From: Verrucomicrobiia bacterium
Lineage (GTDB): Bacteria > Desulfobacterota > Binatia > UBA9968
DNA: 64,000 nt
Direction: 5' to 3'
NCBI GenBank assembly: GCA_035495775.1
Contig: DATJFG010000186.1
Location: 13,791-77,790, forward strand
The notes beneath the pieces were generated by a model that saw only the letters and a list, made by a program, of their open reading frames with translations, was not told where the DNA came from and did not search any database. Position numbers and translations under genes: made by a program. This document shows positions 32,037 through 64,000 of this stretch, piece after piece (the stretch's first letter is position 1; every line of letters starts with the position of its first letter).

Positions 32037-32048
32037 TTCCCTTCGTTT

Positions 32049-38088: not shown

Positions 38089-39270
38089 TTACCCGCCTTC
38101 CGCATCCAGCGCCTTGCGCGGCGCGGCCGCCCACGTCGGCCGCGCCGCGCCGGCGATAAGCCGCAGCAGTCCGCAAAAGAGCCCCGCATTGAGCACGACG
38201 AAATAGCGCGCGGCGGTCGCTAGCCGGCCGACCGCCGGGAGCGGGCGAAGCAGTGCGCTGCCCAAGGCCAGGGCATAAAAGGCCAACTGCGCGGCCAAGA
38301 GCCAACGAAAAAACGGATCGTCAAGCAACGCCAAATTTCCGATCAGACCCGCCAGCATGAGCCACGGCCCGAGCCATCGAAGCGCTTTATGTGAGAAATA
38401 CGCCAGCGCGATCATTCCTTTCCACGGCAGCAGCAGTCTCCACGTCCATTTCAGAGCTTGAAAATCACCCGCGCCGATGCGCACGCGCCGACGGAATTCA
38501 TCGCGCACCTGCTCGGGAGACCGCTCACAGGCGCGCGCTTCGGGCACAAAAAAAATACGGTCGCCGAAGCGGAGCCGCATGAGCATCGGAATCAGGAAAT
38601 CGTCGACGATCGCTTCGCGAGACAGTCGCTGATACCGTTCGCGCCGGAACGCGTAGATCGCCCCGTTGGCTCCGAGGAGGCTGCCGAATTGCGATTCGAG
38701 CGTTTTGATCCATGTCTCGTAACGCCAGTAGGCGCCGTCCAGATTGCCTTTTTCGAACGGTGACCTAAGCTCCAGACATCCAACGACGACCGAGCCGTGC
38801 GGATGCTGGCCGAGAGCTCTGACGAGTTGCCGCACTGCGTCGAGGCGAAAGTATGTATTGGCGTCGGTGAGGACGACGATGGCGCTCCGCGCCTCGGCCA
38901 TAAGATCGTTGAGCACGCTCGCCTTGCCTCTCCTTTCAGGAAACGCCAGCAGGCGGACGCGCGCATAGGATTTTACGATTTCTTCCGTGCGGTCGGTAGA
39001 TCCATCCGATCCGATGAGAATCTCGACCCGCTCTGGTGGATAGTCGATTTTGAGCAGATTTTCGATGCGCTCGGCGATCGCCTGCTCCTCATTATAGGCG
39101 GACACGAGGATGCTTACGTCAGGCCATTCCGCGGGCTCATCGTTCGATTTATCCGGCTTCGATACGAGCCGGCTAAAAAACCAAAGCATCGCGGGATAGC
39201 CGACGTAGGTGTAAAACAAGAGCGCGAAGGATAGTAAGGTGAGCCAGTAAAAAACCTGCTCGGTGCTCAT
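38089..39270 (-). CDS. membrane-embedded (synthase-type) family-2 glycosyltransferase
   Basis: N-terminal TM, VSILVSAYNEE..GSDGSTD..LTDANT.. catalytic core, degenerate QxxRW-like RRRVRIGAG, and 3-4 C-terminal TM helices. Same architecture class as PgaC/IcaA/Alg8. Confidence 0.8.
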   Translation of the reverse strand: MSTEQVFYWLTLLSFALLFYTYVGYPAMLWFFSRLVSKPDKSNDEPAEWPDVSILVSAYNEEQAIAERIENLLKIDYPPERVEILIGSDGSTDRTEEIVKSYARVRLLAFPERRGKASVLNDLMAEARSAIVVLTDANTYFRLDAVRQLVRALGQHPHGSVVVGCLELRSPFEKGNLDGAYWRYETWIKTLESQFGSLLGANGAIYAFRRERYQRLSREAIVDDFLIPMLMRLRFGDRIFFVPEARACERSPEQVRDEFRRRVRIGAGDFQALKWTWRLLLPWKGMIALAYFSHKALRWLGPWLMLAGLIGNLALLDDPFFRWLLAAQLAFYALALGSALLRPLPAVGRLATAARYFVVLNAGLFCGLLRLIAGAARPTWAAAPRKALDAEGG

Positions 39271-39318
39271 TTGTTCCTTATTTTCAGAGTAAAGGTGCGA
39301 CCAGGGACGTTGGCCGCA

Positions 39319-40533
39319 TCAATTAAGAATGATCAATTGAAAAAAAATTTCCGTCTCATCGATGAAGGTCGGGAACATCACGCCGAGCGTTCGCTGGACT
39401 ATTCTTTTAATCCAAGGCATCCAGTGGCGGAATAGGGGATGCAAGCAGTGATACCCCACTTCGGTGGCTCCGGCCAACAGCCAGAGAAATTGCGAGTAGG
39501 TGTTATACGGAAACAAACTTAAATCCACTACTGGTCGCGTGCCGTTTGCGAACAGTAACTTGTAATCGGCCAAACCTCGGCCGAAATCGAGCGCGTCGAC
39601 GATGCGGCTTTGGTGGAGTTCTTCTAAAATTTTAAACAAAAGAACCTTGCCGGGATTGAGTTTGGCGAATTGGGGATCGTAGCCGACGACATCGTAAGAT
39701 AACTCGCCGTGGCGAATGGTCGCGTAACAGTACGCCGCGGGTACGCCGCGAATATAGAGGATATAGCTGCGCCACCTGCCAACGGCGGCGAGATAAGAGG
39801 TCTTCTTTACGGCCTGCGGGGTGACGCGAAGAGCATTCATGCCTATCTTCCACTGGTACGTCAGCCGGGCGATGCTTCCCGCGTCGCGCATGAACTGTTC
39901 CACGTCCGCGGGCGAATGATAGATCTTTATCTCGACGTCTCCCGCAACCGCCTCATCAAGGAGCCGAACCTCGCGTCTTAAATTGTAGCGGGCCTTCTTT
40001 GTAAAGCGTTTTTTGAGATAGCTTTCGAAGGTATCATCGAGCTTTACTTGAACCGTCGGCACGTCCTTGCGGATCATCCGATAGCGCGGCCTCTTTTGCG
40101 CGCTCCCAAGGCGTCTCACGAGCGGATCATCTGGCGAAACCTCGAGGATATTTCCGATATGCCATCCGCGCTGATTGAGCAACAGCTCGAAAAAGCGATC
40201 GAGAAGGTTATCGGGAATTGTCCTGACGCCGACGAGGCCGAAGATCCTGAGTTGCCTGACCGGCAGACGCCCCAAAGATAACGGGCCGACGGCCGGTCGG
40301 AACTGCTTCCAGGAAAACGCATACGTCAGGTAGGCGAACGGTACTCCATCGTCGTAGGCTACGACCGCGCCCGAATGCTCGCCTTCAAAATCTTCCGCGA
40401 GGAATTCAGCATCCATCCCTGGAATGGTTGCGCTTGGGAGCCCTGCCGCCCGCAGCTTGGGCGCTAGATCGCGCAATGCTTCGCGACTCGCATAATGTCG
40501 AATCTCAGTATCCATCGTTTGCAGCTGTTTCAC
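39319..40533 (-). CDS. CelD/BioF2/FemAB-like GNAT-fold acyltransferase (copy 1 of 3)
   Basis: Core ..SYILYIRGVPAAYCYAT..YDVVGYDPQFAKLNPGKVLLFKILEEL..DFGRGLADYKLLFAN matches the CelD-like pattern (G...YK..W/F). GTG start uncertain. Confidence 0.65.
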   Translation of the reverse strand: MKQLQTMDTEIRHYASREALRDLAPKLRAAGLPSATIPGMDAEFLAEDFEGEHSGAVVAYDDGVPFAYLTYAFSWKQFRPAVGPLSLGRLPVRQLRIFGLVGVRTIPDNLLDRFFELLLNQRGWHIGNILEVSPDDPLVRRLGSAQKRPRYRMIRKDVPTVQVKLDDTFESYLKKRFTKKARYNLRREVRLLDEAVAGDVEIKIYHSPADVEQFMRDAGSIARLTYQWKIGMNALRVTPQAVKKTSYLAAVGRWRSYILYIRGVPAAYCYATIRHGELSYDVVGYDPQFAKLNPGKVLLFKILEELHQSRIVDALDFGRGLADYKLLFANGTRPVVDLSLFPYNTYSQFLWLLAGATEVGYHCLHPLFRHWMPWIKRIVQRTLGVMFPTFIDETEIFFQLIILN

Positions 40534-40559
40534 GTTTTTCTCTCGGATAAATCACGCCA

Positions 40560-41873
40560 TTAAGCGGCGCTTTCGACGCTTTTCTCGATTTTACTTTTTT
40601 GAACGATACCTCTCGTGAGGTCGATGACGATGTGATTCGCGTCCGCGGCGGCAAGCGCAGCGGCGGCCTCGGTGTCGGCGTTGCCGATGACTAATACCTC
40701 GGCGTGCGCCAGCAGCTCTTCGACCGTCTCGCACATCAGAGACGAGATGTGCGGAATCTCCTCCTCGATGTATCGGCGGTTCGCCCCCATCAGGCGGGCC
40801 AAGGAGACGTTGCGGTCTAGAATGCGCACGTCGCAGCCTTTACCGATGAGCGTCTCGGCCAACGTGACCATGGGGCTTTCTCTCAAATCATCTGTCAACG
40901 GCTTGAAGGAAAGCCCGACAATGCCGACTTTGCGTTTGCGAGTCTTTAGAATCGCTTCCACCTGCTGGCGGACCTGCCCTTCGTTGGACGGCAGGATCGA
41001 AGTGAGCAGCGGGACGGCGAGATCGGCCGAGCGCGCCGCGTAAATGAGAGCGCGAAGGTCCTTCGGCAGGCACGAGCCGCCGAACGCGAATCCCGGTCGC
41101 AGGTACATTTCGGAAATGTTGAGCTTTTTATCCGACATAAAAATGCGCATGAGCTCCTGCGGATCGACGCCGAATGCGCCGCAGATATCGCCGATCTCGT
41201 TAGCGAAGGTGATTTTCAGTGCGTGAAATGTGTTCGAGACGTATTTGAGCATCTCCGCCGTTTTAATCGTGGTCTGGACGAAGGATGACTGAACGCCGGT
41301 ATACAACGAACGTAGCAAGGCCGCCGTCGAGGCATCTTCGGTACCCACCAACGTGAACGGGGGCTGAGCGAAGTCTTTGAGCGCGCTGCCTTCCCGCATG
41401 AACTCTGGATTGACGGCAACGCGGAGAGAAGCGTCCAACGGCCGGCCGGCGCCGGCGGTCAGGGCGGGAATGAAGATCTGCTCGGTCGTTCCCGGCAGCA
41501 CCGTGCTGCGGAGCACGACGGTGAAGGGGGCCGAGCGCGTCGCGAGCGCCGCGCCGATCTCGCGAGCGACTCGCTCGATCGCGGCGATGTCGAGCCGACC
41601 ATTCGATCGACTCGGTGTTCCTACGCAGATCAGCGCGAGTTCGGTCTCTTTAACGGCGTTTTCCGTGGAGGCGATCGCGCGCAGCCGCTTGTCCCAGACC
41701 ACCTCCGCCAAAACGTCGCCGAGGCCCGGTTCGACGACCGGTGGGACCGCGTCGTTGACCATGACGACCTTCTCCGGAGTGATGTCGACGCCGATTACCT
41801 GATGGCCTGTTTTGGCCAGACATGCCGCTGTCACACACCCGACGTATCCTAGTCCAAAGACGCTAACTCGCAT
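40560..41873 (-). CDS. algD: GDP-mannose 6-dehydrogenase (AlgD-like nucleotide-sugar dehydrogenase)
   Basis: MRVSVFGLGYVGCVTAACLAKTGHQVIGVD, ICVGTPS, VVLRSTVLPGT and GLSFKPLTDDLRESPMVTLAETLIGKGCDVRILDRNV closely parallel P. aeruginosa AlgD as recalled (MRISIFGLGYVGAVCAGCL.., GLSFKAGTDDLRESP..LIGKGYELRIYDRNV). Confidence 0.8.
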   Translation of the reverse strand: MRVSVFGLGYVGCVTAACLAKTGHQVIGVDITPEKVVMVNDAVPPVVEPGLGDVLAEVVWDKRLRAIASTENAVKETELALICVGTPSRSNGRLDIAAIERVAREIGAALATRSAPFTVVLRSTVLPGTTEQIFIPALTAGAGRPLDASLRVAVNPEFMREGSALKDFAQPPFTLVGTEDASTAALLRSLYTGVQSSFVQTTIKTAEMLKYVSNTFHALKITFANEIGDICGAFGVDPQELMRIFMSDKKLNISEMYLRPGFAFGGSCLPKDLRALIYAARSADLAVPLLTSILPSNEGQVRQQVEAILKTRKRKVGIVGLSFKPLTDDLRESPMVTLAETLIGKGCDVRILDRNVSLARLMGANRRYIEEEIPHISSLMCETVEELLAHAEVLVIGNADTEAAAALAAADANHIVIDLTRGIVQKSKIEKSVESAA

Positions 41874-43071
41874 AGTGAATGGCCTCCTTTAAATGCATTT
41901 CGAATTCCGCCGCCACCTGTTTCCACGAATATCGCTCTTCGACGAGTTTTCTGCCGCCGTGTTCCAGCTTGCCGCGCCGCGTGGGGTCGCGAAGCAATTC
42001 GATCACCGCGCGCGCGAAATCCTCCGGATCGTCCGCGGCAAGGAAATGCTCTCCCGAGACCAGCGGCAGCCCCTCCGCGCCGATCCGGGTCGAGACGACC
42101 GCTTTGCCCATCGACAGCGCCTCGAAAATCTTGATCCGCGTCCCGCCGCCGATTCGGAGCGGAACGACGTAAACCGCGGCCTCGCCGACGTACGGTCTCA
42201 CGTCCTCCACCGTCCCGGTCACGCGCACCGCCGCGCCCGCCGCGGCGCGGAGCCGCGGCGTGGGATTTCGGCCGACCACTGTGAGCGTCGCTTCGGGAAT
42301 TTCTTGGCGAATCAGCGGCAGGATCGACTCTATGAAATAAAGAATGCCTTCTTCGTTAGGATACCAATCCATCGAGCCGGTAAAGACAAGCTTTGCCGCC
42401 GACTGACGTGTGCCGTTCGGGTGAAAGTAGGACGTATCGACCCCCGTGGGGATCGCACGCACTTTCGCCCGAGGGGCCGCCGCCGCTAACACGGCCCGGT
42501 CGTTCTCCGAAACGGCGAGGGTCAGCTGCGCGCGCGTGCACGCGTTCGCTTCGGCTCGTCGGAGCTTTTTCCATTCGATCGCCAGCAGAGCGCGGCGCAG
42601 CGGGCGCGTTTCAGCGTCGTAGAGCCGTTTCCAAATAAGATACTCGGCGTTGTGCTCGAACAGTACCGTCGGTACGCGCACTTCGCGAGGCAGGTTTGGG
42701 ATTGCGTAAAGGAAATCGACCACGCAAAGATCGGTTTTCTCGGGCGTAAGGCGCTGAAGGACTTCCCGTTGGAGCGCCGGGATGCGCCATTTCCAGAGCG
42801 TTACCGGCAGTGGAGATACCCATGAGCGCAATAGCGCCAGCACGAACGCTCGGCTATCGCGCTTGGGCAGCGAGTAAGGCACCGAAACCACCTCGCAGCC
42901 GGGCAGATTAGCGGCGAGGCCGGCGGCATCGTCGCCGACGCCGTGCGTCGTCAGTACGGTCATCCGGTGCTGCCGCGCCAGTTCGGAAATGATATGAAAA
43001 CTTCGCTGCCTTCCGCCGGTATTGAGCGGCCAAAGGCCGCCGACGTTGAGCCAGAGTATTCGCATGATCAT
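41863..43071 (-). CDS. GT4-family (GT-B) glycosyltransferase
   Basis: Start moved to ATG 43071 (ATGA overlap with the asparagine-synthase-like stop). The track's 74-aa Arg-rich extension overlaps the upstream gene. C-terminal E..G....EA...G.PVV-type motif (FEALSMGKAVVST). Confidence 0.85.
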   Translation of the reverse strand: MIMRILWLNVGGLWPLNTGGRQRSFHIISELARQHRMTVLTTHGVGDDAAGLAANLPGCEVVSVPYSLPKRDSRAFVLALLRSWVSPLPVTLWKWRIPALQREVLQRLTPEKTDLCVVDFLYAIPNLPREVRVPTVLFEHNAEYLIWKRLYDAETRPLRRALLAIEWKKLRRAEANACTRAQLTLAVSENDRAVLAAAAPRAKVRAIPTGVDTSYFHPNGTRQSAAKLVFTGSMDWYPNEEGILYFIESILPLIRQEIPEATLTVVGRNPTPRLRAAAGAAVRVTGTVEDVRPYVGEAAVYVVPLRIGGGTRIKIFEALSMGKAVVSTRIGAEGLPLVSGEHFLAADDPEDFARAVIELLRDPTRRGKLEHGGRKLVEERYSWKQVAAEFEMHLKEAIHYAS

Positions 43072-44975
43072 GCCGCCCGGAGAACGACGCTGCGGTCTTC
43101 GCCATCCAGGAAAATGCGCTGCCACATCTCGAGGTTGATCAAAAGCCAGAGCCGGTCTCCGTGCTCCCGTGCGCCGCTGCGATGCTCCTCGGCGAGCCGT
43201 TGGACCGCCGCGCGCTGGAATAGCCGCCGCTCGATGGTACGGGAGCCCAAAACGAATTCCTCGACGATCGGCCAGAACGGTCCGCGCAGCCACTTTCCCA
43301 TCGGGACAGGAAAACCCATCTTGCTGCGGGTGAGGATCTCCTTCGGTACGATATCCTTCACCGCTTCGCGCAGCACGGCCTTAGTCGTCAAGCCTCGGAC
43401 TTTGAAACGACTCGGTAAGCGCACGATATGCTCGACGAATTTGTGATCGAGAAAAGGAACGCGGCTTTCGATGGAGGCCGCCATACTCATCTGGTCTTGC
43501 TTCATGAGCAGCTCGACAAGATACGTTTGCAGGTCCGCTCGACTCATCCGCTCGAGAGTGTCGCCGTCGATCTCGTCGTAGCAGCGGAGGCATTCTGCGT
43601 ACGCGTCGGTCCGTACGAGATCGCGGTCGGCCAGCAGTCCGGCGCGAAGACGGTCTGGAAAGACCGCGAAGTTCTCGTAATAAAGACCTCGAGCACCGGG
43701 GTCGAGCGCAAGGAAGCTTCTTTCCGCATACCGCCTAAGCCGCCGCGGTAAGCGCCGTGTCAGCTCTTTCGCTTTGACGCGTAGCGTTTCCGGGACTACT
43801 GGAAAATACAGAGAGCCCATTCGCTCATTCCACGCTGTCGCGCGATACCACGGATAGCCCAAAAACAGCTCGTCAGAGCCTTCACCGGTCAATACGACCT
43901 TAACGTGGTCGCGCGCCAGTTGAGATACGAAGTTCAGCGGGATGCTCGAAGTAAAGGCGATCGGCTCGTCCTCGTGCCAGATGAGGTTTGGCAGCGCGCC
44001 GAAAAATTGCTGAGGAGAAACCACGATCTCGCGGTGTTCCGCATGGACGGCGCTTGCAACCAGACGCGCGTAATTGAGCTCGTTCGCTTCCGCTTCGGCG
44101 AAGCCGACGGAAAACGAACGGATTCGCTCCTTCACCAAAGGAGCCATGAGCGCCGCCAACGCGCTGGAATCGAGGCCGCCGGAGAGAAACAATCCCAGCG
44201 GCACATCACTCATGAGATGGCTCCGTACCACCGAGGAGAGGTGCTGGCGCACCTCCACGGCGCCCGCTTCGAGGGAGGCCGAGTTGCTATTGTCGGCCAA
44301 CGGCAGCTCCCAATATCGCCGCTGGCGGATGCCATGCTCGAGGGACCAAGATAGCGTGCGACCGGGGAGAAGCTTCTTGATACCGTCAAAAAAGGTGTCC
44401 TCACCTGCGACGAACCGTGTCGCGAGAAATTCCGGTAGGATCGCTTCGTTAAACGAAGGCTGGACGGAACCGCCGGTTAAAATTGCTTTTATCTCCGAGG
44501 CGAAGACGATCTCGTCTTTTGTGATCGCATAATAGAGCGGCTTGATGCCGAGGCGATCGCGCGCGAGAAGAAGCCGGCCGCGGTTTTTGTCCCATAGGGC
44601 GAAGGCGAACATCCCTTCGAGCAGCTCCACGCAGCGATCACCTTCTTCTTCGTAAAGGTGAATGATGGTTTCGGTGTCGCTCCGGCTGGCGTAGCGATGG
44701 CCGCGCGCTTCGAGATCGGGCCGCAGAGCGGCATGGTTGTAAATTTCGCCATTATAGGTGATCCAAACCGATCCGTCTTCGTTCGTCATCGGCTGATGGC
44801 CGCCTGCGACATCGACGATCGACAACCGTCGATGGCCGAGTCCTACACGCCCGTCGACCCACAGGCCGGCGCCGTCCGGGCCGCGGTGACGCAGGACGTC
44901 ACGCATGCGTTTGAGCCGGGGCTCGTCCACCTGACTTTGCGGATTTAATTTGATAATGCCAACGATACCGCACAT
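43068..44975 (-). CDS. asparagine synthase (glutamine-hydrolysing)-family amidotransferase, EPS-locus type (copy 1)
   Basis: MCGIVG Ntn nucleophile, GHQPM, SGGLDSS PP-loop. 635 aa. Confidence 0.9.
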   Translation of the reverse strand: MCGIVGIIKLNPQSQVDEPRLKRMRDVLRHRGPDGAGLWVDGRVGLGHRRLSIVDVAGGHQPMTNEDGSVWITYNGEIYNHAALRPDLEARGHRYASRSDTETIIHLYEEEGDRCVELLEGMFAFALWDKNRGRLLLARDRLGIKPLYYAITKDEIVFASEIKAILTGGSVQPSFNEAILPEFLATRFVAGEDTFFDGIKKLLPGRTLSWSLEHGIRQRRYWELPLADNSNSASLEAGAVEVRQHLSSVVRSHLMSDVPLGLFLSGGLDSSALAALMAPLVKERIRSFSVGFAEAEANELNYARLVASAVHAEHREIVVSPQQFFGALPNLIWHEDEPIAFTSSIPLNFVSQLARDHVKVVLTGEGSDELFLGYPWYRATAWNERMGSLYFPVVPETLRVKAKELTRRLPRRLRRYAERSFLALDPGARGLYYENFAVFPDRLRAGLLADRDLVRTDAYAECLRCYDEIDGDTLERMSRADLQTYLVELLMKQDQMSMAASIESRVPFLDHKFVEHIVRLPSRFKVRGLTTKAVLREAVKDIVPKEILTRSKMGFPVPMGKWLRGPFWPIVEEFVLGSRTIERRLFQRAAVQRLAEEHRSGAREHGDRLWLLINLEMWQRIFLDGEDRSVVLRAA

Positions 44976-44988
44976 CGACCGCTACCTC

Positions 44989-45999: not shown

Positions 46000-46031
46000 G
46001 GACGCTCCTCCTTCAGATGATCAGCCGACGA

Positions 46032-47447: not shown

Positions 47448-47450
47448 AGA

Positions 47451-49163: not shown

Positions 49164-49266
49164 GCGGATTCTTGTGATGACTGAGAAGATTTTGGGGCTC
49201 GACCGGGCGCGTTTGCCGGTCGCACTTATTGAAGCGCGGCGGCGGCGCAACCGATGCGGATCGCGA

Positions 49267-53656: not shown

Positions 53657-53672
53657 CGCCTCCTGACGTAGC

Positions 53673-55100: not shown

Positions 55101-55140
55101 GATCGATTTCCGCTCCCGCGGGTCGAGGGTAATGACACCT

Positions 55141-57042: not shown

Positions 57043-57067
57043 CGAACGATCCTCTCTGGACGTTTAG

Positions 57068-58573: not shown

Positions 58574-59651
58574 GCAGAGAATGCGCGATGTAACCGCCGT
58601 TGCAATTTAAGCCGAAGTCGAACAAGCCGCTGACAAGGCAATCCAGCAGAGCCGGCGAGAATCGGCCGACGGGATCGACGCAGGATTTTTCCCAAAGGAC
58701 TCTTCGCGGTATCGTCAGAAGCGGACAATCGGAACGGCGGATTGGGCCGGTTGTGTAGGCGAAGCGATAGCCCGAGCTGGCGAGCGCTTTGACTGTCGAA
58801 TCGTTGAATCTGCCATCGGGATAGGCGAAATGAAGGATTCTCGCTCCCAGCCGTTGTTCGAGCTCCCGGCGCGATCCCTCGATCTCATCACGGATTTTTT
58901 CCTGGCTCTCGTTGGGAAGCACGGCGTGCGTCCGCGTATGGGAACCGACGACCACGCCGCTTTGGTGCATCTTCTTCACCATTTCCCAAGTTAAGGCGTG
59001 CTGCGCTTCCCGAGGACCCGGCACCAATCCGGTTTGTTTTTCCAAAAGGCCGATTAACCTTTCGATCTCGCATTGTGGCAAAACCCCGAGTAGGGAGTTC
59101 ACGGCTTTTGAATAATCCACGACGCCGTTGCCGAAATTTTGCGGATCCAACGGCGGTATATCGAGAGCAAGCAAGGATGCGAGTAGTTCGCGGGGCGACG
59201 GAACTTTCGAAGCGAACGCCATGACCAACAGTAGATAAAGCTTGTCGTGATATTGCAACTTGGACGTGCCGATGACGTCGGTGACTACAAACAGCGCGGC
59301 CGGAATGCCTTTGCGCTTGAGCAGTGGCCAAGCGTGGTCATACACATCCTGATAGCCGTCGTCGAACGTGACGGCAGCAAGCGGCTTCGGAAAGCTCTTT
59401 TTCCCCTGTAGCGATGTCGCCAACTCGTCGAGTGAGACAAACCTATAGCGGGAGCCGATCCAGTCCAGCTGTCGCTCCAACATCGCGACACTGATGAGCA
59501 TTGCCGGTATCGAATCCTGCGAATGCAGCGAGAAATCGTCGACGACTCTGTGGTAGCTCAACACCAGCGGCGCATCCTTTCTGATCCAACGTGTCACGCC
59601 GGTCCAATGGAGCGCCGAGGCGGCGCCTGTCTTAACGAGATTGCGCAGCAT
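58548..59651 (-). CDS. polysaccharide deacetylase (NodB homology, CE4)
   Basis: VTFDDGYQDVYDHAWPLLKRKGIPAALFV (motif 1), GSHTRTH (motif 2), AYPDG. Confidence 0.85.
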   Translation of the reverse strand: MLRNLVKTGAASALHWTGVTRWIRKDAPLVLSYHRVVDDFSLHSQDSIPAMLISVAMLERQLDWIGSRYRFVSLDELATSLQGKKSFPKPLAAVTFDDGYQDVYDHAWPLLKRKGIPAALFVVTDVIGTSKLQYHDKLYLLLVMAFASKVPSPRELLASLLALDIPPLDPQNFGNGVVDYSKAVNSLLGVLPQCEIERLIGLLEKQTGLVPGPREAQHALTWEMVKKMHQSGVVVGSHTRTHAVLPNESQEKIRDEIEGSRRELEQRLGARILHFAYPDGRFNDSTVKALASSGYRFAYTTGPIRRSDCPLLTIPRRVLWEKSCVDPVGRFSPALLDCLVSGLFDFGLNCNGGYIAHSLRGSYEVNV

Positions 59652-60798
59652 AGTATCCTTTCAGTTGCGCGGTTCTTCTCGCCGTCGCGATTTTCTCCGC
59701 GAGCGGTTTCGGAAGAATGGTCCAGCCGAGTCTCCTCGCAACGCGGCCGGCTTGGGAGATATGCCCATAGAGAAAGCCGGCCGCACTGGGAGGATAGACT
59801 TCCAATTTGTGGATCTCGCGCGTTGAGCGCGCCCAAAGAAATTTATAAGTCTCGCTTCCGTGGAGAAGGTCGTACTCCTGCGCTCCCTCTTCGAGCGCGA
59901 ATCGAATGGTAAGGCCCATGGCCACAAGTCCCGTGCTATAGCGGGCATAATCTGGATCGAGGCCGGATTGAAAAAAATAAAACCGCCCATGGTGGTGAAA
60001 TCCGTAGAGCGCTGCGGCCGGCAGGTCGTCGAGCGAAAGGATGAAAAGCCTGAGCCAGCCGCGTTCTAACGCGCGCTGCGAAAGTTCATCATGGAACGAG
60101 ACCATATCGGGTGTCGAAAAAGCCTCGGAGCGTCCTTTGTCGCGCCAGCGGCGCCGATGCAGATCAATCAGCGCGGCGAGAAAGTCGCGGCGTTGTTCTT
60201 CGGTTGCGGCTGACTCGAAGCGGAACGTAAAATCACGGCGGAGTTGCTTAAGCCGTCTTTGGAAGTTCGCACGGTGCGAAGCACCGAGACTCGCGAGATA
60301 AGAATCCCAGGTAGCACCGGTCAACTCGATGTACGGACAGATGTCGGTTGGGACTTCCCAGGAGCGATACCCGCTTCGCTCTCCGAGGGTTCGGGCGAGT
60401 CGCCGGGCTAGGGCGGAGCTTCGAAGTTGTCCTAAGTCGAGCAGCAGTTTCCGCTCCGCCAGGTACTCGGCCAACTCATCTATAGCCTCTCTTTCGCTGC
60501 CGTTTCGGACGATGAGATCTAGGTAGTCCGAGCCGGCAGCGCCCGATCCTAAAAACTCGAGGGTCGGTGGAATGCCGAAGCGCTCGGGTTTGGCGGCGAA
60601 CGGTGCCAAAGCGATCATCTTTCCGCCTGAGTGAAGCGTCAGGATGAAAAGCTTTCTTTGTCCGGACAGATGCTTCCACCACGTGAAGAGCCATTCCCAC
60701 GTCAAAAAGAAACAATTCGCTGAACTCGCATCGAGCAGGTCGCGCCATGCGCCGCGAAGTTGCTCGAAGTCTTCGGCAGTTTCGATTTTTACGACCAT
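59632..60798 (-). CDS. CelD/BioF2/FemAB-like GNAT-fold acyltransferase (copy 2 of 3)
   Basis: Start moved to ATG 60798, 8 nt after the upstream stop (MVVKIETAEDFEQLRGAWRDLL..). C-terminal YDLLHGSETYKFLWA motif. Confidence 0.7.
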   Translation of the reverse strand: MVVKIETAEDFEQLRGAWRDLLDASSANCFFLTWEWLFTWWKHLSGQRKLFILTLHSGGKMIALAPFAAKPERFGIPPTLEFLGSGAAGSDYLDLIVRNGSEREAIDELAEYLAERKLLLDLGQLRSSALARRLARTLGERSGYRSWEVPTDICPYIELTGATWDSYLASLGASHRANFQRRLKQLRRDFTFRFESAATEEQRRDFLAALIDLHRRRWRDKGRSEAFSTPDMVSFHDELSQRALERGWLRLFILSLDDLPAAALYGFHHHGRFYFFQSGLDPDYARYSTGLVAMGLTIRFALEEGAQEYDLLHGSETYKFLWARSTREIHKLEVYPPSAAGFLYGHISQAGRVARRLGWTILPKPLAEKIATARRTAQLKGYYAAQSR

Positions 60799-60806
60799 AA
60801 GCAACT

Positions 60807-62051
60807 TCACACGATGGCTTGTTCGATCGCCCACAACAGGCCCAAGGCGATAGTCGCTTTTCCGTAGCGCAGCAGTGAATAGAGCCGCCGCCGGCGAAGC
60901 GACGGCAGGGCGCCGAATTTCACCGCATGGATGATGGAGGTGCGGAGCTTTCGCTGCATAATGTAAACCCAGTATTGCGACTTAGTCTTGTCCGCCCAGC
61001 GCAGCTTCCAAGCGTCGCTGCCGCCCAGGAACTCGTATTCCGCCACACCCCGTTCACACGCTTCTTGAAACAGCAGATGACACAGCAGCAGATAGGGGGA
61101 GTATGCAGCGTACTCAGGACGATAGCCGGCTTTCAAAACATAGATTTTGTTTTTGTGAAACAGAGCGTAAGCAAAGGCGATCCGCGTTGCGCCAACTTTT
61201 AGAAACACCAGCCGCAAAGTGCCAAGACGCTCTGTTTCGTCGGCAACCTGCCGGTAAAAACAGACGAGCTCGGGGCGGCACACAATTGCCGTCCCGGCCT
61301 TCGCTTTCCATGCGGCCGCCTCGATGCTGAGGCCTTCCTCGAGAACCTGCTGCAGGTTGTCGGGTTTCGCTATGACTTCGAGCCGCACCACACCGATGCG
61401 GCGGAGACGCCGCAAGCGCTTGCCCATCTGCGAGCGATGATTATGGCTGAGGCTCCTCAGCAGCGTTCTCCAGCCTTGAGCAAACTCGACATAGGGGCAA
61501 TCTTCGGAGTGCCATATGCCCGTGAGAAAGTTGTCCTTGGCGGCGAGGCGCGTCAATTCCTTCAGTGTCGGGGAATCGAAGATCACCTGCATTAGTTCGA
61601 CGACGTCCCAGAGATCGGCGCACTTTAAAAGGTGTTCCCAAATAATCCGGTAAACTTCTCTTCGCCGATCGGCGATGATGAGATCGAACCGAGGCGTGTG
61701 GACATTCGCCATAAAGCCGATCTTACGTACTTTCAGGCCGTACATTCTTCCGACGCTCAGCATTAACGGAGCAATCGCGATCGGTCTGTCGCCGGCCTTA
61801 ATCACGAGGATATGCAATCTTTTTCCTGCGCCAAAGCACTGCCACCAGCTCCGAACCCATTCATGGCTCGAGAAGGGGTGCTCGATGTTCGCCTCCTCCA
61901 CGAGGCAATTCCAGACCGTGGCGAGCTCGAGGAATCGCGCCTCGTCGGTTACGACTTCGGCTTTGATCTTAGGCTCGCCGGCGGCAGGGAGGGCCGCTGA
62001 TTCAGCGGACCGGCGATCGGCCGGCACATGGAATATTTCGTTTGATTCCAT
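60807..62051 (-). CDS. CelD/BioF2/FemAB-like GNAT-fold acyltransferase (copy 3 of 3)
   Basis: ..FLELATVWNCLVEEA..HPFSSHEWVRSWW.. and YEFLGGSDAWKLRWA motifs, parallel to copies 1 and 2. Confidence 0.7.
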   Translation of the reverse strand: MESNEIFHVPADRRSAESAALPAAGEPKIKAEVVTDEARFLELATVWNCLVEEANIEHPFSSHEWVRSWWQCFGAGKRLHILVIKAGDRPIAIAPLMLSVGRMYGLKVRKIGFMANVHTPRFDLIIADRRREVYRIIWEHLLKCADLWDVVELMQVIFDSPTLKELTRLAAKDNFLTGIWHSEDCPYVEFAQGWRTLLRSLSHNHRSQMGKRLRRLRRIGVVRLEVIAKPDNLQQVLEEGLSIEAAAWKAKAGTAIVCRPELVCFYRQVADETERLGTLRLVFLKVGATRIAFAYALFHKNKIYVLKAGYRPEYAAYSPYLLLCHLLFQEACERGVAEYEFLGGSDAWKLRWADKTKSQYWVYIMQRKLRTSIIHAVKFGALPSLRRRRLYSLLRYGKATIALGLLWAIEQAIV

Positions 62052-62056
62052 CAGGA

Positions 62057-63820
62057 TCAGTCCACCGGCCGACGCCGCACCAGCGTATTTTCCAGAAAGA
62101 GAAACTCTATACCTGTGCCGAGGAACGTCTCCACCGCCTCACGCGGTGTGTTGACGATCGGTTGCCCTTTGACGTTGAAGCTCGTATTGAGGACCATCTC
62201 GCGCCCCGTTGTCTTGCCGACAGCCGTAAGCAGGGCGTGAAACTCCGCATTATCCGTCCCTGAAACGGTTTGCAGTCGGGCAGAGCCGTTCACGTGTGTG
62301 ACGGCCGGCAGCTGGGCTCGGTGGGGCTCCCGCACATCGACAGTCATGATCATGTAAGGCAGCTCGGTCATTGGCGCTACCTCGAACCACTGATGCGCTT
62401 GTTCGACCGTCACCGCCGGCGCGAAGGGCCGGAACGCCTCGCGCATTTTTACCATCGCGTTAATCCGGTCGCGCATTTCAGGATGGCCCGGATCGGCCAG
62501 AATGCTGCGATGTCCCAAGGCTCGAGGCCCGAATTCCATGCGCCCCCGATACCAGGCGACGACGTGTCCATCGGCGATCAAGTGCGCGGCCTGTTCGCAG
62601 GCTTCATCCAAGGTGGCGCAGCGTACGGTCTCGATCCGATGCTCGAATGCCGCCAAGGCGTCGTCAATTTCAATCTGAGAATGCGCCGGGCCATAAAAAG
62701 GGGTCGGCAGCCGTTCGTTGACGATTTCTCCGGCCAGCGCGGCACGGTAAAGCGCGGCTCCCAGTGCCGACCCGTCGTCTCCGGCTGCCGGTTGCACATA
62801 GATCTCGTCGAACAAACCGGAGGACAGGAGTTTGCCATTGGCGGTGCAGTTGAGCGCCACTCCGCCTGCAAGCGCAAGCCGGCGTAGTCCGGTCTTTTGA
62901 CCAAAATAGCCGCAGAGATGAAGCATCGTCCGGTCGAGACATGATTGGAGCGCCGCGGCGATATCGCGGTAGTCGTCGGTAATCTCGGCTTCGGGGTCGC
63001 GCTCCGCAATCAAATGGCGGCTTAAATACTCTCGCGTGCGGAGGTGGTTCTCACGCTCATCACGGGTGCGGTTGAGCTTCAGCATTGGAATCTGGATCGA
63101 TCCGTCCTCGCCCAATAAGACGTTTTGATCGAAAAACTGGCGAAACCGATCCGGGTCCCCATAAGGGGCGAGTCCCATGATCTTGTATTCATCGGCGTTG
63201 AAGTCGAATCCAAGATGAAAAGTGATGAGTGAGTAGAGAATCCCGATCGAATTGGCGGCGGAAATCTGATGGACGCGTTCAAGTCGTCCCCCACGGGCGC
63301 GGTAGACCGACGCGCTGTGCACCTCGCCCATACCGTCGATGACAACCGTCAAGCACTCATCCCAGCCGGAGGTGAGATACGCGCTGGCCGCGTGCGCGAG
63401 ATGATGGCCCACAGGCTGCACACGCTCGAGGGGATAATCGGGAAGGTAACGGCGAACGGAAGTTAACAGCGCTTCCTTGGAATAGACCTCGCGGTAACAT
63501 GCGGCGCCGACAGGATCGATCGAGAAAGCCGCCGCATAGGGCGAATAGTCGAATCCATGGGCGATCTTATCGATCTCCGAGAGAGGGACTCCGGCTTCGC
63601 GGAGACAATATTCGATCGCCTGCTGCGGAAAGTCTCCGCAGTGCTTCTTTCGATTAAAGCGTTCTTCCGCCGCAGCTGCGACAACGGTACCGTCGATGAT
63701 CAAGGCGGCTGCCGAATCGTGGCCTTGGGACATGCGGTATTCACGGTCGTTCAGGCCCGGCCAGTGCTTTTTCTTAAACGGGATCGAGTTTTCCAATCCG
63801 CTGATTCCGATAATATTCAT
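62057..63820 (-). CDS. carbamoyltransferase (NodU/CmcH family)
   Basis: MNIIGISG..HDSAAALIIDGTVVAAAAEERFNRKKH, GHHLAHAASAY and a C-terminal carbamoyltransferase domain. GGAGAA RBS. Confidence 0.9.
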   Translation of the reverse strand: MNIIGISGLENSIPFKKKHWPGLNDREYRMSQGHDSAAALIIDGTVVAAAAEERFNRKKHCGDFPQQAIEYCLREAGVPLSEIDKIAHGFDYSPYAAAFSIDPVGAACYREVYSKEALLTSVRRYLPDYPLERVQPVGHHLAHAASAYLTSGWDECLTVVIDGMGEVHSASVYRARGGRLERVHQISAANSIGILYSLITFHLGFDFNADEYKIMGLAPYGDPDRFRQFFDQNVLLGEDGSIQIPMLKLNRTRDERENHLRTREYLSRHLIAERDPEAEITDDYRDIAAALQSCLDRTMLHLCGYFGQKTGLRRLALAGGVALNCTANGKLLSSGLFDEIYVQPAAGDDGSALGAALYRAALAGEIVNERLPTPFYGPAHSQIEIDDALAAFEHRIETVRCATLDEACEQAAHLIADGHVVAWYRGRMEFGPRALGHRSILADPGHPEMRDRINAMVKMREAFRPFAPAVTVEQAHQWFEVAPMTELPYMIMTVDVREPHRAQLPAVTHVNGSARLQTVSGTDNAEFHALLTAVGKTTGREMVLNTSFNVKGQPIVNTPREAVETFLGTGIEFLFLENTLVRRRPVD

Positions 63821-63856
63821 CCCGCGTTCTCCTTCGTAAGACTCATGCCAGACGTG

Positions 63857-64000
63857 CTAAGGTGCCGAACGCGCGACATCGAGCGGCACCGGCGGGACTT
63901 CCTGATACGAGATACGAAGACGCTGGCGAGGAGACCAGTAGCCGTCGCTCGCGAGACGAAAACGCATGATCCACTCGCCCTCCAGGCGGCTTAGAAAAGC
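63857..64000 (-). CDS. 3' end of an upstream gene of the same operon (47 codons visible), function unknown
   Basis: Hand translation of the minus strand gives an open frame from the window edge to TAG (63857-63859): ..LEGEWIMRFRLASDGYWSPRQRLRISYQEVPPVPLDVARSAP. GC3 about 64%. Confidence 0.3.
   Translation of the reverse strand, partial: AFLSRLEGEWIMRFRLASDGYWSPRQRLRISYQEVPPVPLDVARSAP

What the first reader, a model, noticed from the sequence alone, without database searches (positions are those of the whole stretch)
38089..64000. Single-strand polysaccharide gene train of at least 26 kb mixing alginate-like core genes with unusually heavy decoration
At least 19 minus-strand genes have gaps of 0-40 nt or overlaps (ATGA at 43068-43071, an 11-nt overlap at 41863-41873, 20-28-nt overlaps at 58548, 59632 and 60807 if the track starts hold). 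The 5' end lies beyond the window. The core resembles alginate logic: an AlgD-like GDP-mannose 6-dehydrogenase, an AlgI-like MBOAT plus an SGNH-like partner, a membrane synthase-type GT2 and a lyase-family protein. Alg44, AlgK, AlgE and AlgG are not seen. It also encodes a Wzx flippase and two GT4s, hallmarks of the Wzx/Wzy route, so two assembly logics coexist. The decoration set is exceptional: two AsnB-type amidotransferases, three CelD/FemAB-like acyltransferases, a CE4 deacetylase, a SAM methyltransferase and a NodU/CmcH carbamoyltransferase. This predicts a uronic-acid polymer that is amidated, O-acetylated, methylated, carbamoylated and possibly aminoacylated. I do not know of a described polymer with this combination.
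Basis: partly seen in the sequence, partly recalled or inferred. Interest (0 to 1): 0.75.

Follow-up and report, generated by a model that had tools for sequence, protein, structure and literature searches.

The report
Soil-bacterium surface-polysaccharide gene cluster
This is a real polysaccharide-building gene cluster of more than 26 kb from an uncultured soil bacterium (closest matches are Binatia genomes), predicted to make a heavily decorated mannuronic-acid sugar polymer by the ordinary Wzx/Wzy route rather than an alginate-like one; its chemistry is unknown and it includes two uncharacterised enzyme families.

Summary

- The dehydrogenase is truly AlgD-like: 49.5% identical to P. aeruginosa GDP-mannose dehydrogenase with no gaps.
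- Nothing else specific to alginate is present.
- The membrane GT2 lacks the QxxRW synthase motif.
- The "lyase" resembles heparinase III and has no signal peptide.
- In four syntenic relatives the train continues upstream into a Wzc-like kinase, a priming phosphoglycosyl transferase, a Wzy-type polymerase, and a stand-alone amino-acid adenylation enzyme with its carrier protein.

So this is one Wzx/Wzy-dependent locus, not two coexisting assembly logics.

It resembles XrtA/PEP-CTERM exopolysaccharide loci, but every diagnostic model scores below its cutoff.

New points:
- The two unassigned genes are a GT-C-fold glycosyltransferase and a secreted beta-propeller closest in fold to PL22 uronate lyases. 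The propeller has two further paralogues just downstream.
- A core of propeller, GT2, AlgD-like dehydrogenase, GT4, heparinase-like protein and AsnB recurs in distant metagenomic contigs.

I rate it a new variant of a known kind, of moderate interest.

The parts
63857..64000 (-). C-terminal 47 codons of a ~395-aa protein (weak Acetyltransf_9 hit). It is the last gene of the upstream adenylation-enzyme / carrier-protein / transferase trio.
   Evidence: the tail is identical to the end of the 319-aa partial gene in L001 and matches the 396-aa protein of L083; the gene follows AMP-binding and PP-binding genes.
62057..63820 (-). g18: NodU/CmcH-type O-carbamoyltransferase
   Evidence: Carbam_trans_N 200 bits and Carbam_trans_C 228 bits; 64-82% identical homologues in many phyla.
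60807..62051 (-). g17: PF13480 (CelD/FemAB-like tandem GNAT) acyl- or aminoacyl-transferase. No TM helix, so inferred cytoplasmic.
   Evidence: Acetyltransf_6 116.9 bits, weak FemAB hit; no TM helix.
59632..60834 (-). g16: second PF13480 transferase, 27% identical to g17
58548..59651 (-). g15: CE4 polysaccharide de-N-acetylase. No TM helix detected.
   Evidence: Polysacc_deac_1 97.6 bits. N-terminal part like PgaB/IcaB; the XrtA deacetylase model scores only 18.6 bits; no TM helix.
57068..58573 (-). g14: MOP-family (Wzx-type) flippase, multi-pass membrane protein
   Evidence: Polysacc_synt_3 and Polysacc_synt; many hydrophobic segments.
55141..57042 (-). g13: AsnB-type glutamine-dependent amidotransferase 2, starting MCGI
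   Evidence: Asn_synthase 368 bits; TIGR03108 648 bits, below the 816.9 cutoff.
53673..55175 (-). g12: secreted beta-propeller of an uncharacterised family, closest in fold to PL22. The start is at 55175 or 55100.
   Evidence: no family hit; at least 1577 homologues; pLDDT 89; the top three PDB hits are oligogalacturonate lyases.
52829..53656 (-). g11: SAM-dependent methyltransferase
   Evidence: Methyltransf_23, _25, _11 and _12.
51658..52878 (-). g10: GT4 glycosyltransferase
   Evidence: Glycos_transf_1 113 bits; every specific model is below its cutoff.
49267..51507 (-). g9: heparinase II/III-family (PL12-like) protein without a signal peptide. The likely start is at 51453.
   Evidence: Hepar_II_III_N 127 bits and _C 149 bits; best PDB match is heparinase III at 130 bits; no hydrophobic N-terminus; independently called as 728 aa.
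47451..49250 (-). g8: GT-C-fold membrane glycosyltransferase of an unnamed family. The likely start is at 49163.
   Evidence: no family hit; pLDDT 90.5; the top 22 PDB hits are all GT-C enzymes (STT3, DPY19, ArnT, PglB, PMT, ALG). Asp47 is invariant; by position it is inferred to lie in the first extracytoplasmic loop.
46032..47447 (-). g7: MBOAT O-acyltransferase of the AlgI/DltB/PatA class
   Evidence: MBOAT 87.6 bits. DltB model 155 bits, below the 375 cutoff. DltB structures 91 bits.
44989..45999 (-). g6: N-terminally membrane-anchored partner of the MBOAT, probably SGNH-like
   Evidence: DUF1574 19 bits, sub-threshold; one N-terminal TM helix. The sequence shows a GNSLL block and a DGFH block; an orthologue (75% identical) follows the MBOAT in L083.
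43068..44975 (-). g5: AsnB-type amidotransferase 1, starting MCGI, 40% identical to g13
   Evidence: 60-61% identical orthologues in distant clusters.
41863..43071 (-). g4: GT4 glycosyltransferase, stp1-like
   Evidence: TIGR03087 226.8 bits, below the 316.65 cutoff. ATGA start/stop overlap with g5.
40560..41873 (-). g3: GDP-mannose 6-dehydrogenase (AlgD-type)
   Evidence: 433 bits and 49.5% identity to P. aeruginosa AlgD, with Cys268 in the GGSCLPKD motif.
39319..40533 (-). g2: third PF13480 transferase, the most divergent of the three
38089..39270 (-). g1: membrane GT2 with a minimal cellulose-synthase-like architecture but no QxxRW motif
   Evidence: Glycos_transf_2, Glyco_tranf_2_3 and Glyco_trans_2_3; best PDB match is 6yv7. 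C-terminal TM helices, and RRVRI in place of QxxRW.
34746..38087 (+). Secreted 1113-aa paralogue of g12: propeller, then fn3/Ig repeats, then a C-terminal ~150-aa module. It converges on g1 with a 1-nt gap.
   Evidence: 58% identical to g12. The same propeller/GT2 convergence is seen in L084 and L086.
32137..34596 (+). Secreted 819-aa paralogue of g12
   Evidence: 56% identical to g12.
24851..32081 (-). Possibly associated block, with the link to the train inferred only: histidine kinase (29727-32081), response regulator (28821-29714), 546-aa multi-pass membrane protein (27203-28843), PgfS/ArnC-like polyprenyl-phosphate GT2 (26161-27222) and an SGNH/AlgX-like protein (24851-26044).

Best explanation
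The train is the distal two-thirds of one large Wzx/Wzy-dependent locus for a surface or extracellular heteropolysaccharide. The host is an uncultured soil bacterium whose closest relatives in public genomes are Binatia MAGs.

Inferred pathway:
1. A repeat unit is built on undecaprenyl phosphate at the cytoplasmic face. The priming transferase and one GT4 lie upstream, outside the window, and are seen only in syntenic relatives.
2. g3 supplies GDP-mannuronic acid.
3. GT4s g4 and g10 and the membrane GT2 g1 add sugars.
4. While the unit is still cytoplasmic it is modified:
   - the two AsnB enzymes amidate uronate carboxyls;
   - the CE4 enzyme removes an N-acetyl group;
   - the three PF13480 GNAT-type enzymes, and perhaps the upstream 395-aa protein fed by the adenylation enzyme and carrier protein, re-acylate or aminoacylate;
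   - g11 methylates and g18 carbamoylates;
   - the signal-less heparinase-like g9 acts on a uronate, possibly by C5 proton abstraction, as an epimerase or eliminase.
5. Wzx (g14) flips the unit and an upstream Wzy-type protein polymerises it.
6. On the outer face the MBOAT/SGNH-like pair (g7/g6) O-acylates the polymer, and the GT-C enzyme g8 adds a sugar from a polyprenyl-phosphate donor.
7. The secreted PL22-like propellers (g12 and the two plus-strand paralogues) trim or remodel the polymer.

Shown here: gene identities, synteny, folds, and the upstream content in relatives. Inferred: every substrate, the order of steps and the polymer structure.
For: - Families.
- GDP-mannose dehydrogenase class.
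- Wzx.
- Upstream genes on a contig with an identical carbamoyltransferase (AMP-binding, PP-binding, 395-aa protein).
- Upstream genes in three syntenic MAGs at 80-82% g18 identity. These are a Wzc-like P-loop protein, a priming transferase that passes TIGR03025 (338.7 bits against a 295.55 cutoff), Wzy_C, a GT4, a luciferase-like oxidoreductase, an adenylation enzyme that passes TIGR01733 (382.9 against 317.4), and a carrier protein.
- Both halves of the train are kept in order in L083 (84% identical in g12).
- No TM helix or signal peptide in g9, g15, g2, g16 or g17.
- g8 has a GT-C fold. In L083 it is preceded, with overlap, by a GtrB-like GT2.
- g12 has a PL22-like fold.
- A core of propeller, g1-like GT2, g3-like dehydrogenase, g4-like GT4, Hepar_II_III protein and g5-like AsnB recurs in distant contigs.
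- Precedent for pairing a CE4 deacetylase with a FemX-like GNAT that re-acylates the freed amine: HfsH/HfsK of the Caulobacter holdfast (PMC5362036).
Against: - Wzy, the priming transferase and Wzc were not seen in this genome itself. The window ends before them, and the contig carrying identical genes stops at the adenylation enzyme.
- No Wza-type export protein was seen anywhere.
- All specific equivalog models score below cutoff, so no enzyme has a proven substrate.
- The g10-g9 gap of 150-204 nt could hold an internal promoter.
- The PL22 resemblance is fold-level only, and a profile search of PDB sequences finds nothing.
- The role proposed for the cytoplasmic heparinase-like protein has no direct precedent that I could find.
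Confidence: 0.75

Rival explanations
1. One reading: an alginate-like, synthase-dependent polymannuronate core (AlgD, Alg8-like GT2, AlgI/AlgJ-like pair, AlgL-like lyase) coexists with a separate Wzx/Wzy system in one operon.
For: - The dehydrogenase is genuinely AlgD-like.
- An MBOAT with a membrane-anchored partner is present.
- The GT2 has C-terminal TM helices, and its nearest solved structure has a minimal cellulose-synthase-like fold.
- A lyase-fold protein is present.
Against: - The GT2 has no QxxRW motif.
- No Alg44/PilZ, AlgK, AlgE, AlgG, AlgX or AlgF is found among the ORFs scanned across the window.
- The lyase-fold protein is PL12-like rather than PL5, and has no signal peptide.
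- In distant clusters the GT2, dehydrogenase, GT4, AsnB and Hepar_II_III protein travel together without any synthase accessory genes.
Confidence: 0.07
2. The product is not a free exopolysaccharide or capsule. It is an LPS O-antigen or a glycan transferred to proteins, for example to the Ser/Thr/Pro-rich linkers of the neighbouring secreted propeller proteins. The Wzy_C protein would then act as a ligase and the GT-C protein as a transferase.
For: - The best NCBIfam match of the Wzy_C protein in relatives is 'putative O-glycosylation ligase, exosortase A system-associated', at 136.8 bits against a 188.1 cutoff.
- g8 has the fold of the oligosaccharyl, C-mannosyl and O-mannosyl transferases.
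- The two plus-strand proteins have S/T/P-rich linkers.
- AsnB-type uronate amidation is best known from O-antigens (my own knowledge: P. aeruginosa WbpS, Francisella WbtH; not tested here).
Against: - A Wzc-like P-loop gene directly precedes the priming transferase in relatives. That is typical of EPS and capsule loci rather than O-antigen loci.
- The priming transferase passes the EPS-type model TIGR03025.
- No WaaL-specific or lipid A-core genes are nearby.
Confidence: 0.13
3. The train is several independent operons that merely share a strand: for example a Dlt-like acylation unit, an amino-sugar modification unit and a uronate unit, serving different cell-envelope polymers.
For: - Gaps of 150-204 nt (g10-g9) and up to about 103 nt (g9-g8) could hold promoters.
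- The g1-g5/g9 core occurs elsewhere without the g13-g18 half.
- The carbamoyltransferase occurs in many genomes with unrelated neighbours.
Against: - Both halves stay contiguous and in the same order in L083, and the g18-g10 half does so in L003-L005.
- Many junctions overlap or are under 30 nt.
- No terminator-like hairpin lies in a junction apart from one weak hit at g2/g1.
- Every gene has a polysaccharide-related family or fold.
Confidence: 0.05

Closest known systems
XrtA/PEP-CTERM (exosortase A) type exopolysaccharide loci (Haft et al. 2006, PMC1569441; NCBIfam TIGR03108, TIGR03087/03088/04063, TIGR03006, TIGR03013, TIGR03097, TIGR03098)
   Same: The gene repertoire matches: AsnB-type amidotransferases, stp-like GT4s, a CE4 deacetylase, FemAB/GNAT-like transferases, an AMP-forming ligase with a carrier protein, an EPS-type priming transferase, a Wzy_C/O-ligase-like protein and a Wzc-like kinase. 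For the amidotransferases, stp1-like GT4 and (in relatives) the Wzy_C protein and GT4, the best-scoring specific model is from this set; for the priming transferase, ligase and deacetylase it is a lower-ranked hit.
   Different: - Every one of those models scores below its curated cutoff: 557 and 648 against 816.9; 226.8 against 316.65; 18.6 against 276.2; 334.6 against 393.35; 136.8 against 188.1; 237.3 against 592.35.
- The PEP-CTERM FemAB model gives no hit.
- No exosortase or PrsK/PrsR-type regulators appear in the window.
- The neighbouring secreted proteins do not end in a PEP-CTERM motif.
- This locus adds an AlgD-type dehydrogenase, a PL12-like protein, a GT-C enzyme, a carbamoyltransferase and the propeller family.
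Alginate biosynthesis operon of Pseudomonas and Azotobacter (algD-8-44-K-E-G-X-L-I-J-F-A)
   Same: It has an AlgD-type GDP-mannose 6-dehydrogenase (49.5% identical), an MBOAT with a membrane-anchored partner for O-acylation, and a polysaccharide-lyase-fold protein inside a biosynthetic operon.
   Different: - No Alg44, AlgK, AlgE, AlgG, AlgX or AlgF.
- The GT2 lacks QxxRW.
- The lyase-fold protein is PL12-like and apparently cytoplasmic, not a periplasmic PL5 enzyme.
- Wzx is present and Wzy is inferred.
Caulobacter holdfast modification pair HfsH (CE4 deacetylase) and HfsK (FemX-like tandem GNAT) (PMC5362036)
   Same: A CE4 deacetylase is paired with soluble FemX-like GNAT transferases in a Wzx/Wzy pathway. 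The logic proposed there is deacetylation followed by re-acylation of the freed amine.
   Different: Homology of g2, g16 and g17 to HfsK was not tested here. This locus has three such enzymes, plus an adenylation enzyme with a carrier protein as a possible acyl donor.
Dlt D-alanylation system (DltA, DltC, DltB, DltD)
   Same: All four roles are represented: a stand-alone amino-acid adenylation enzyme (DltA subfamily model 298 bits), a small carrier protein with weak DltC hits, an MBOAT (DltB model 155 bits) and an N-terminally anchored SGNH-like partner.
   Different: - All scores are below the equivalog cutoffs.
- The adenylation enzyme and carrier protein lie about 17 kb from the MBOAT pair. 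They sit next to a GNAT-like gene, which could use the carrier-bound amino acid instead.
- The acceptor would be a polysaccharide rather than teichoic acid.
PL22 oligogalacturonate lyases (3c5m, 3pe7), for the g12 propeller family
   Same: Both are beta-propellers, and PL22 enzymes are the best fold matches (E 4e-13 to 5e-12, TM 0.56-0.70). The g12 family has several invariant His and Asp residues, as expected of a metal-dependent enzyme. It sits beside uronate-polymer biosynthesis genes.
   Different: - There is no sequence-level similarity.
- g12 family members have a signal peptide and six invariant Cys residues, implying secretion. By my recollection, not checked here, PL22 enzymes are cytoplasmic.
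- They are often fused to Ig/fn3 and lectin-like modules.
- Catalytic residues could not be superposed.

Membership tests
Alginate (alg) synthase-dependent system | GDP-mannose 6-dehydrogenase AlgD | tested here: met
   433 bits, 49.5% identity over 402 gap-free residues, catalytic Cys268 kept.
Alginate (alg) synthase-dependent system | Processive GT2 synthase (Alg8) working with a PilZ co-polymerase (Alg44) | tested here: not met
   g1 has no QxxRW motif and its best PDB match is the archaeal mannosyltransferase 6yv7. No PilZ or Alg44-like protein turns up in the Pfam scans of ORFs across the window. No Alg8-specific model was available.
Alginate (alg) synthase-dependent system | Periplasmic scaffold and export proteins AlgK (TPR), AlgE (porin), AlgG (beta-helix epimerase) and AlgX | tested here: not met
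   None appear in the train or elsewhere in the window. The only weak ALGX-domain hit is in the separate gene at 24851-26044.
Alginate (alg) synthase-dependent system | Periplasmic PL5 lyase AlgL | tested here: not met
   g9 carries Hepar_II_III N and C domains and is heparinase-III-like. The PF05426 hit covers only 28 residues. No signal peptide was found.
Wzx/Wzy-dependent polysaccharide pathway | MOP-family Wzx flippase | tested here: met
   g14: Polysacc_synt_3 and Polysacc_synt, with many hydrophobic segments.
Wzx/Wzy-dependent polysaccharide pathway | Wzy-type polymerase and a polyprenyl-phosphate priming transferase | tested here: inconclusive
   Neither is in the window. Both lie directly upstream in three syntenic relatives: Wzy_C 77 bits, and Bac_transf with TIGR03025 338.7 bits against a 295.55 cutoff. 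This genome's own upstream DNA could not be obtained.
Wzx/Wzy-dependent polysaccharide pathway | Wzc-type co-polymerase/kinase and Wza export channel | tested here: inconclusive
   The C-terminal P-loop part of a Wzc-like gene appears at the edge of L003-L005. Wza was not seen in the DNA available.
XrtA/PEP-CTERM exopolysaccharide locus | Equivalog-level amidotransferase (TIGR03108), stp GT4s, deacetylase (TIGR03006) and FemAB-like protein (TIGR03019) | tested here: not met
   Scores are 557 and 648 against 816.9, 226.8 against 316.65, and 18.6 against 276.2. The three PF13480 proteins give no TIGR03019 hit.
XrtA/PEP-CTERM exopolysaccharide locus | Exosortase gene and PEP-CTERM-tailed substrate proteins | tested here: not met
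   No exosortase-family hit in any scanned ORF of the window. The secreted neighbours end ...AVISKTP and ...AVISTSP, without a PEP-CTERM motif. The rest of the genome could not be tested.
Dlt-type aminoacylation system | DltA, DltC, DltB and DltD equivalogs | tested here: not met
   MBOAT 155 against 375. In relatives DltA scores 298.6 against 476 and DltC 27.9 against 68. g6 gives no DltD hit. The family-level resemblance does exist.
GT-C glycosyltransferase superfamily (g8) | Multi-pass GT-C fold with a conserved acidic residue in the first extracytoplasmic loop | tested here: met
   AF2 pLDDT 90.5 and pTM 0.91. The top 22 PDB fold hits are all GT-C enzymes. Asp47 is invariant in 38 homologues; its loop location is inferred from its position in the sequence.
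PL22 polysaccharide lyases (g12 family) | Beta-propeller with a central Mn site and His/Arg catalytic residues | tested here: inconclusive
   The fold matches best and invariant His residues are present. There is no sequence-level match, and no coordinates were available to superpose the active sites.

The most novel reading that the evidence does not exclude
The recurring core defines a widespread, undescribed class of soil-bacterial polysaccharides built around amidated mannuronic acid. The core is an AlgD-type GDP-mannose dehydrogenase, a membrane GT2, a GT4, an AsnB amidotransferase, a signal-less PL12-fold protein and a secreted PL22-fold propeller. In this reading the two lyase-fold proteins are dedicated biosynthetic or processing enzymes: a cytoplasmic C5-epimerase or eliminase acting on the lipid-linked unit, and a secreted chain-trimming enzyme from a new lyase family.
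Probability: 0.3. Interest if true: 0.65.

Novelty: new variant of a known kind. Interest (0 to 1): 0.45.

Why it matters
Binatia and their soil neighbours are abundant but uncultured, and nothing is known about their surface polymers.

This locus predicts that GDP-mannuronic acid, known in bacteria mainly as the alginate precursor (my own knowledge), is also used in Wzx/Wzy repeat-unit polymers in which it would be amidated.

It also assigns folds and a genomic context to two large protein families that currently have no name:
- a GT-C-type glycosyltransferase;
- a secreted propeller closest to PL22, with at least 1577 homologues, which may be a new polysaccharide-lyase family.

These are concrete targets for enzymology and for carbohydrate-active-enzyme classification. 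The general logic of the cluster is otherwise conventional.

Tried and rejected
- **This genome's own upstream DNA.** Exact-protein look-ups gave only a 33.8-kb contig with no DNA available, which starts inside the adenylation enzyme, plus short contigs. I used syntenic relatives instead.
- **Carbamoyltransferase as a marker for related loci.** It is 64-82% identical in 80 genomes of many phyla, but only 3-4 of them share the neighbourhood. It is a poor marker for the system.
- **NCBIfam ranking of the dehydrogenase.** UDP-glucose dehydrogenase models rank first. I rejected that as evidence, because none passes its cutoff, no GDP-mannose-dehydrogenase model appeared among the NCBIfam hits, and the PDB search clearly favours AlgD.
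- **Sequence-profile search of the propeller family against the PDB.** No hit.
- **PDB sequence searches for g6 and g17.** Nothing useful.
- **Are the ~550-aa membrane proteins of the distant clusters g8 or the 546-aa protein?** They are not detectably related.
- **Is the GtrB-like GT2 next to the g8 orthologue in L083 the same as the window's PgfS-like GT2?** Only 23% identical.
- **Promoter and terminator scans.** No informative sites.
- **Six literature searches for this gene combination or for Binatia EPS.** Nothing relevant. One further query failed on syntax.
- **Cluster-member look-up to get taxonomy for the distant loci.** No names returned.

Full report
**1. Observation**

The region 38089-64000 carries 18 complete minus-strand ORFs. 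A nineteenth ends at 63857 and has its start beyond the window.

Junctions are tight. Seven overlap by 4-50 nt with longest-ORF starts, and most of the rest are 3-48 nt.
- The ATGA stop/start overlap at 43071-43068 was read directly.
- The 11-nt overlap at 41863-41873 holds. The start of g3 is validated by its residue-1-to-residue-1 alignment with AlgD.
- Independent gene calls on a metagenome contig carrying identical proteins shorten g8, g9, g10, g11 and g16.
- With those calls the largest spacers are about 204 nt (g10-g9) and about 103 nt (g9-g8).
- No junction holds a convincing terminator.

The order is conserved in four related contigs, so it is not a chance arrangement.

**2. What each gene is**

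| Gene | Family | Key evidence |
|---|---|---|
| g1 | membrane GT2 | |
| g2, g16, g17 | PF13480 GNAT-type transferases | only 22-32% identical to each other, so old paralogues |
| g3 | nucleotide-sugar dehydrogenase | see below |
| g4, g10 | GT4 | |
| g5, g13 | AsnB-type amidotransferases | both start MCGI, 40% identical to each other |
| g7 | MBOAT | |
| g9 | Hepar_II_III N+C | |
| g11 | SAM methyltransferase | |
| g14 | MOP/Wzx flippase | |
| g15 | CE4 deacetylase | |
| g18 | NodU/CmcH carbamoyltransferase | |

The critical dehydrogenase question has a clear answer. Against solved structures g3 scores 433 bits with P. aeruginosa GDP-mannose 6-dehydrogenase, and at most 230 bits with any UDP-glucose dehydrogenase. 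The alignment is gap-free over 402 residues at 49.5% identity, and the catalytic Cys268 motif GGSCLPKD is kept. The NCBIfam ranking that puts UDP-glucose dehydrogenase models first is not informative. None of them passes its cutoff, and no GDP-mannose-dehydrogenase model appeared among the hits.

**3. The two genes without a family**

*g8.* This protein has about ten hydrophobic segments and no Pfam or NCBIfam hit. Its 152 detectable homologues are all unnamed. An AlphaFold model built on 38 homologues is confident (pLDDT 90.5, pTM 0.91). Its 22 best PDB matches are all GT-C glycosyltransferases: STT3, DPY19, ArnT, PglB, Pmt4 and ALG enzymes. Asp47, just after the first helix, is invariant, as expected for a GT-C catalytic loop. 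In the relative L083 the orthologue is preceded, with overlap, by a GtrB/DPM1-like GT2 that has two C-terminal helices. That is the usual donor-making partner of a GT-C enzyme.

*g12.* This is a secreted protein. The N-terminal ~470 residues of the two plus-strand proteins just downstream of the train (32137-34596 and 34746-38087) are its paralogues at 56-58% identity.
- The family has at least 1577 members, 50-60% identical across MAGs labelled Binatia, Rokubacteria, Acidobacteria, Thermoanaerobaculia, Gamma- and Deltaproteobacteria.
- It has no Pfam domain and no informative name.
- The model (pLDDT 89, pTM 0.87) is a beta-propeller.
- Its three best PDB matches are the PL22 oligogalacturonate lyases 3c5m and 3pe7 (E 4e-13 to 5e-12, TM 0.56-0.70). 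They stand about four orders of magnitude ahead of generic propellers.
- Four His, several Asp and six Cys residues are invariant.
- Many members carry Ig/fn3 repeats and a Laminin_G_3-type module.
- This architecture is typical of secreted carbohydrate-active enzymes.
- There is no sequence-level link to any solved structure, so the lyase assignment remains a fold-level inference.

**4. Extent and assembly route**

On a 33.8-kb metagenome contig carrying an identical g18, the genes just upstream are an AMP-binding enzyme, a PP-binding carrier protein and the 395-aa protein whose tail is at the window edge.

Three MAGs (two labelled Binatia and one labelled 'Proteobacteria') share the g18-g10 order at 58-82% identity. 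In them the 10 kb upstream reads:
- a Wzc-like P-loop protein;
- a polyprenyl glycosylphosphotransferase that passes TIGR03025 (338.7 bits against 295.55);
- a methyltransferase (absent in one MAG);
- a Wzy_C protein;
- a GT4;
- a luciferase-like oxidoreductase;
- an adenylation enzyme that passes TIGR01733 (382.9 against 317.4) and scores 298 bits on the DltA subfamily model;
- a carrier protein;
- the ~395-aa protein;
- then g18.

A closer relative, L083 (84% identical in g12), keeps both halves of the train, from the carrier protein down to the second AsnB.

The locus is therefore a single Wzx/Wzy-dependent system about 36-40 kb long. The window shows roughly its distal two-thirds.

The rest of the window holds no Wza, Wzc, exosortase, Alg44, AlgK, AlgE or AlgG. 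It encodes housekeeping functions instead: QueG, OmpA-like, LigD/Ku, GlmS and others.

**5. Why the alginate reading fails**

Only AlgD is shared specifically with alginate systems.
- g1 has the small membrane GT2 architecture. Its nearest solved relative is an archaeal mannosyltransferase (6yv7; a minimal cellulose-synthase-like fold by my recollection, not checked here). It has RRVRI where processive synthases have QxxRW.
- g9 is closest to heparinase III (PL12, 130 bits). Its only match to the alginate-lyase model is a 28-residue fragment.
- g9 has no hydrophobic N-terminus, and the ORF cannot be extended upstream. It is most likely cytoplasmic, unlike AlgL.
- MBOAT-plus-partner modules are generic: AlgI/J, PatA/B, WssH/I, DltB/D. 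The partner g6 has an N-terminal anchor, a GNSLL block and a DGFH block, but only a sub-threshold DUF1574 hit.

**6. A recurring core**

I looked up distant members of the propeller family (51-54% identical) on long contigs. In three of four cases the propeller gene converges on a g1-like GT2 (52-57% identical), exactly as in the window, where only 1 nt separates 38087 from 38089.

Those three clusters contain:
- a g5-like AsnB (60-61% identical);
- a Hepar_II_III protein (36-39%);
- a g4-like GT4 (42-44%) in two of the three, and a g10-like GT4 (51%) in the third;
- a g3-like dehydrogenase (51%) in one case.

Variable extras are GDSL/AlgX-like proteins, methyltransferases, a different carbamoyltransferase and a PF13480 protein.

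So the 'alginate-like half' of the train is really a conserved module, present in several metagenomic lineages of unknown taxonomy and always without synthase accessory proteins. I found no paper describing it.

**7. Mechanism (inferred)**

- The repeat unit is assembled on undecaprenyl phosphate, with GDP-ManA from g3.
- Cytoplasmic tailoring is done by the enzymes without TM helices (AsnB x2, PF13480 x3, PL12-like, CE4). The methyltransferase and carbamoyltransferase were not scanned for TM helices and are assumed soluble.
- The unit is flipped by Wzx and polymerised by Wzy.
- Outer-face O-acylation is done by the MBOAT/SGNH-like pair, and glycosylation by the GT-C enzyme.
- The secreted propellers process the polymer.

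The CE4/GNAT pairing has a published analogue in the Caulobacter holdfast enzymes HfsH and HfsK, where re-acylation of the deacetylated amine was proposed (PMC5362036).

The carrier-bound amino acid could feed either the neighbouring GNAT-like transferase, giving N-aminoacylation, or the MBOAT pair, giving Dlt-like O-aminoacylation. The data do not discriminate between these.

Uronate amidation by AsnB homologues is known from O-antigen genetics. This rests on my own knowledge (WbpS, WbtH) and was not tested here.

**8. Relation to known systems and novelty**

The closest described kind is the XrtA/PEP-CTERM exopolysaccharide locus. For the amidotransferases, the stp1-like GT4 and (in relatives) the Wzy_C protein and GT4, the best specific NCBIfam hit comes from that set, and the priming transferase, ligase and deacetylase also hit it. 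Every one is below cutoff. No exosortase or PEP-CTERM tail is seen. It is therefore a cousin, not a member.

The overall logic (Wzx/Wzy plus tailoring enzymes) is conventional. Large, richly decorated EPS loci are expected in soil bacteria.

Four things are new:
- an AlgD-type dehydrogenase used in this context;
- the conserved AsnB / PL12-like / GT2 / GT4 / propeller core;
- fold assignments for two unnamed families;
- a Dlt-like set of parts in a polysaccharide locus.

I rate it a new variant of a known kind, with interest 0.45.

Noticed in passing
window 53673-55175 (-), 32137-34596 (+), 34746-38087 (+): Three paralogues of a large, unnamed, secreted beta-propeller family with at least 1577 homologues and no Pfam model. 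Its best fold match is the PL22 oligogalacturonate lyases. It repeatedly sits next to polysaccharide clusters in distant contigs and is a candidate new polysaccharide-lyase family.
   Followed up: partly
window 62057-63820 (-); loci L002-L081: The carbamoyltransferase is 64-82% identical in 80 genomes labelled Binatia, Acidobacteriota, Gemmatimonadota, Bradyrhizobium, Solirubrobacterales, Planctomycetes and Verrucomicrobia. Only 3-4 of them share its neighbours. That is unusually strong conservation for a tailoring enzyme and suggests a conserved substrate or frequent transfer.
   Followed up: partly
window 24851-28843 (-): A second modification block sits beyond the propeller genes: an SGNH/AlgX-like protein with a DTHW motif, a PgfS/ArnC-like polyprenyl-phosphate GT2 (303 bits to PgfS) overlapping a 546-aa ten-helix membrane protein with no family, followed by a response regulator and a histidine kinase. 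This is probably a GtrB-like/GT-C-like side-chain glycosylation pair. GlmS and a TviC-like epimerase lie next to it (21521-24394).
   Followed up: partly
L083 15680-18431: In the closest long relative, a GtrB/DPM1-like GT2 with two C-terminal helices overlaps the start of the g8 orthologue. That gene is missing at the equivalent place in the window.
   Followed up: partly
window 38087-38089: The 1113-aa plus-strand gene and the minus-strand GT2 g1 converge with a single base between their stop codons, leaving no room for a terminator. The same propeller/GT2 convergence (3-13 nt) is seen in L084 and L086.
   Followed up: partly
window 5680-5774 (-): A selenocysteine tRNA gene (Rfam 76.9 bits; ARAGORN anticodon TCA).
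   Followed up: no
window 9766-11766 (+) and 14444-15325 (+): A bacterial non-homologous end-joining pair: LigD (ligase plus primase-polymerase domains) and Ku.
   Followed up: no
window 46000-50000: Strong positive AT skew (0.19-0.24) and lower GC on the plus strand, coinciding with the minus-strand membrane-protein genes g7 and g8. GC is also lower (0.52-0.56) across 26-36 kb, the second block and the propeller genes.
   Followed up: no
L087 6071-8496: A distant version of the cluster carries a different carbamoyltransferase (35% identical to g18), together with SxtJ-like and DUF5989 small proteins.
   Followed up: no
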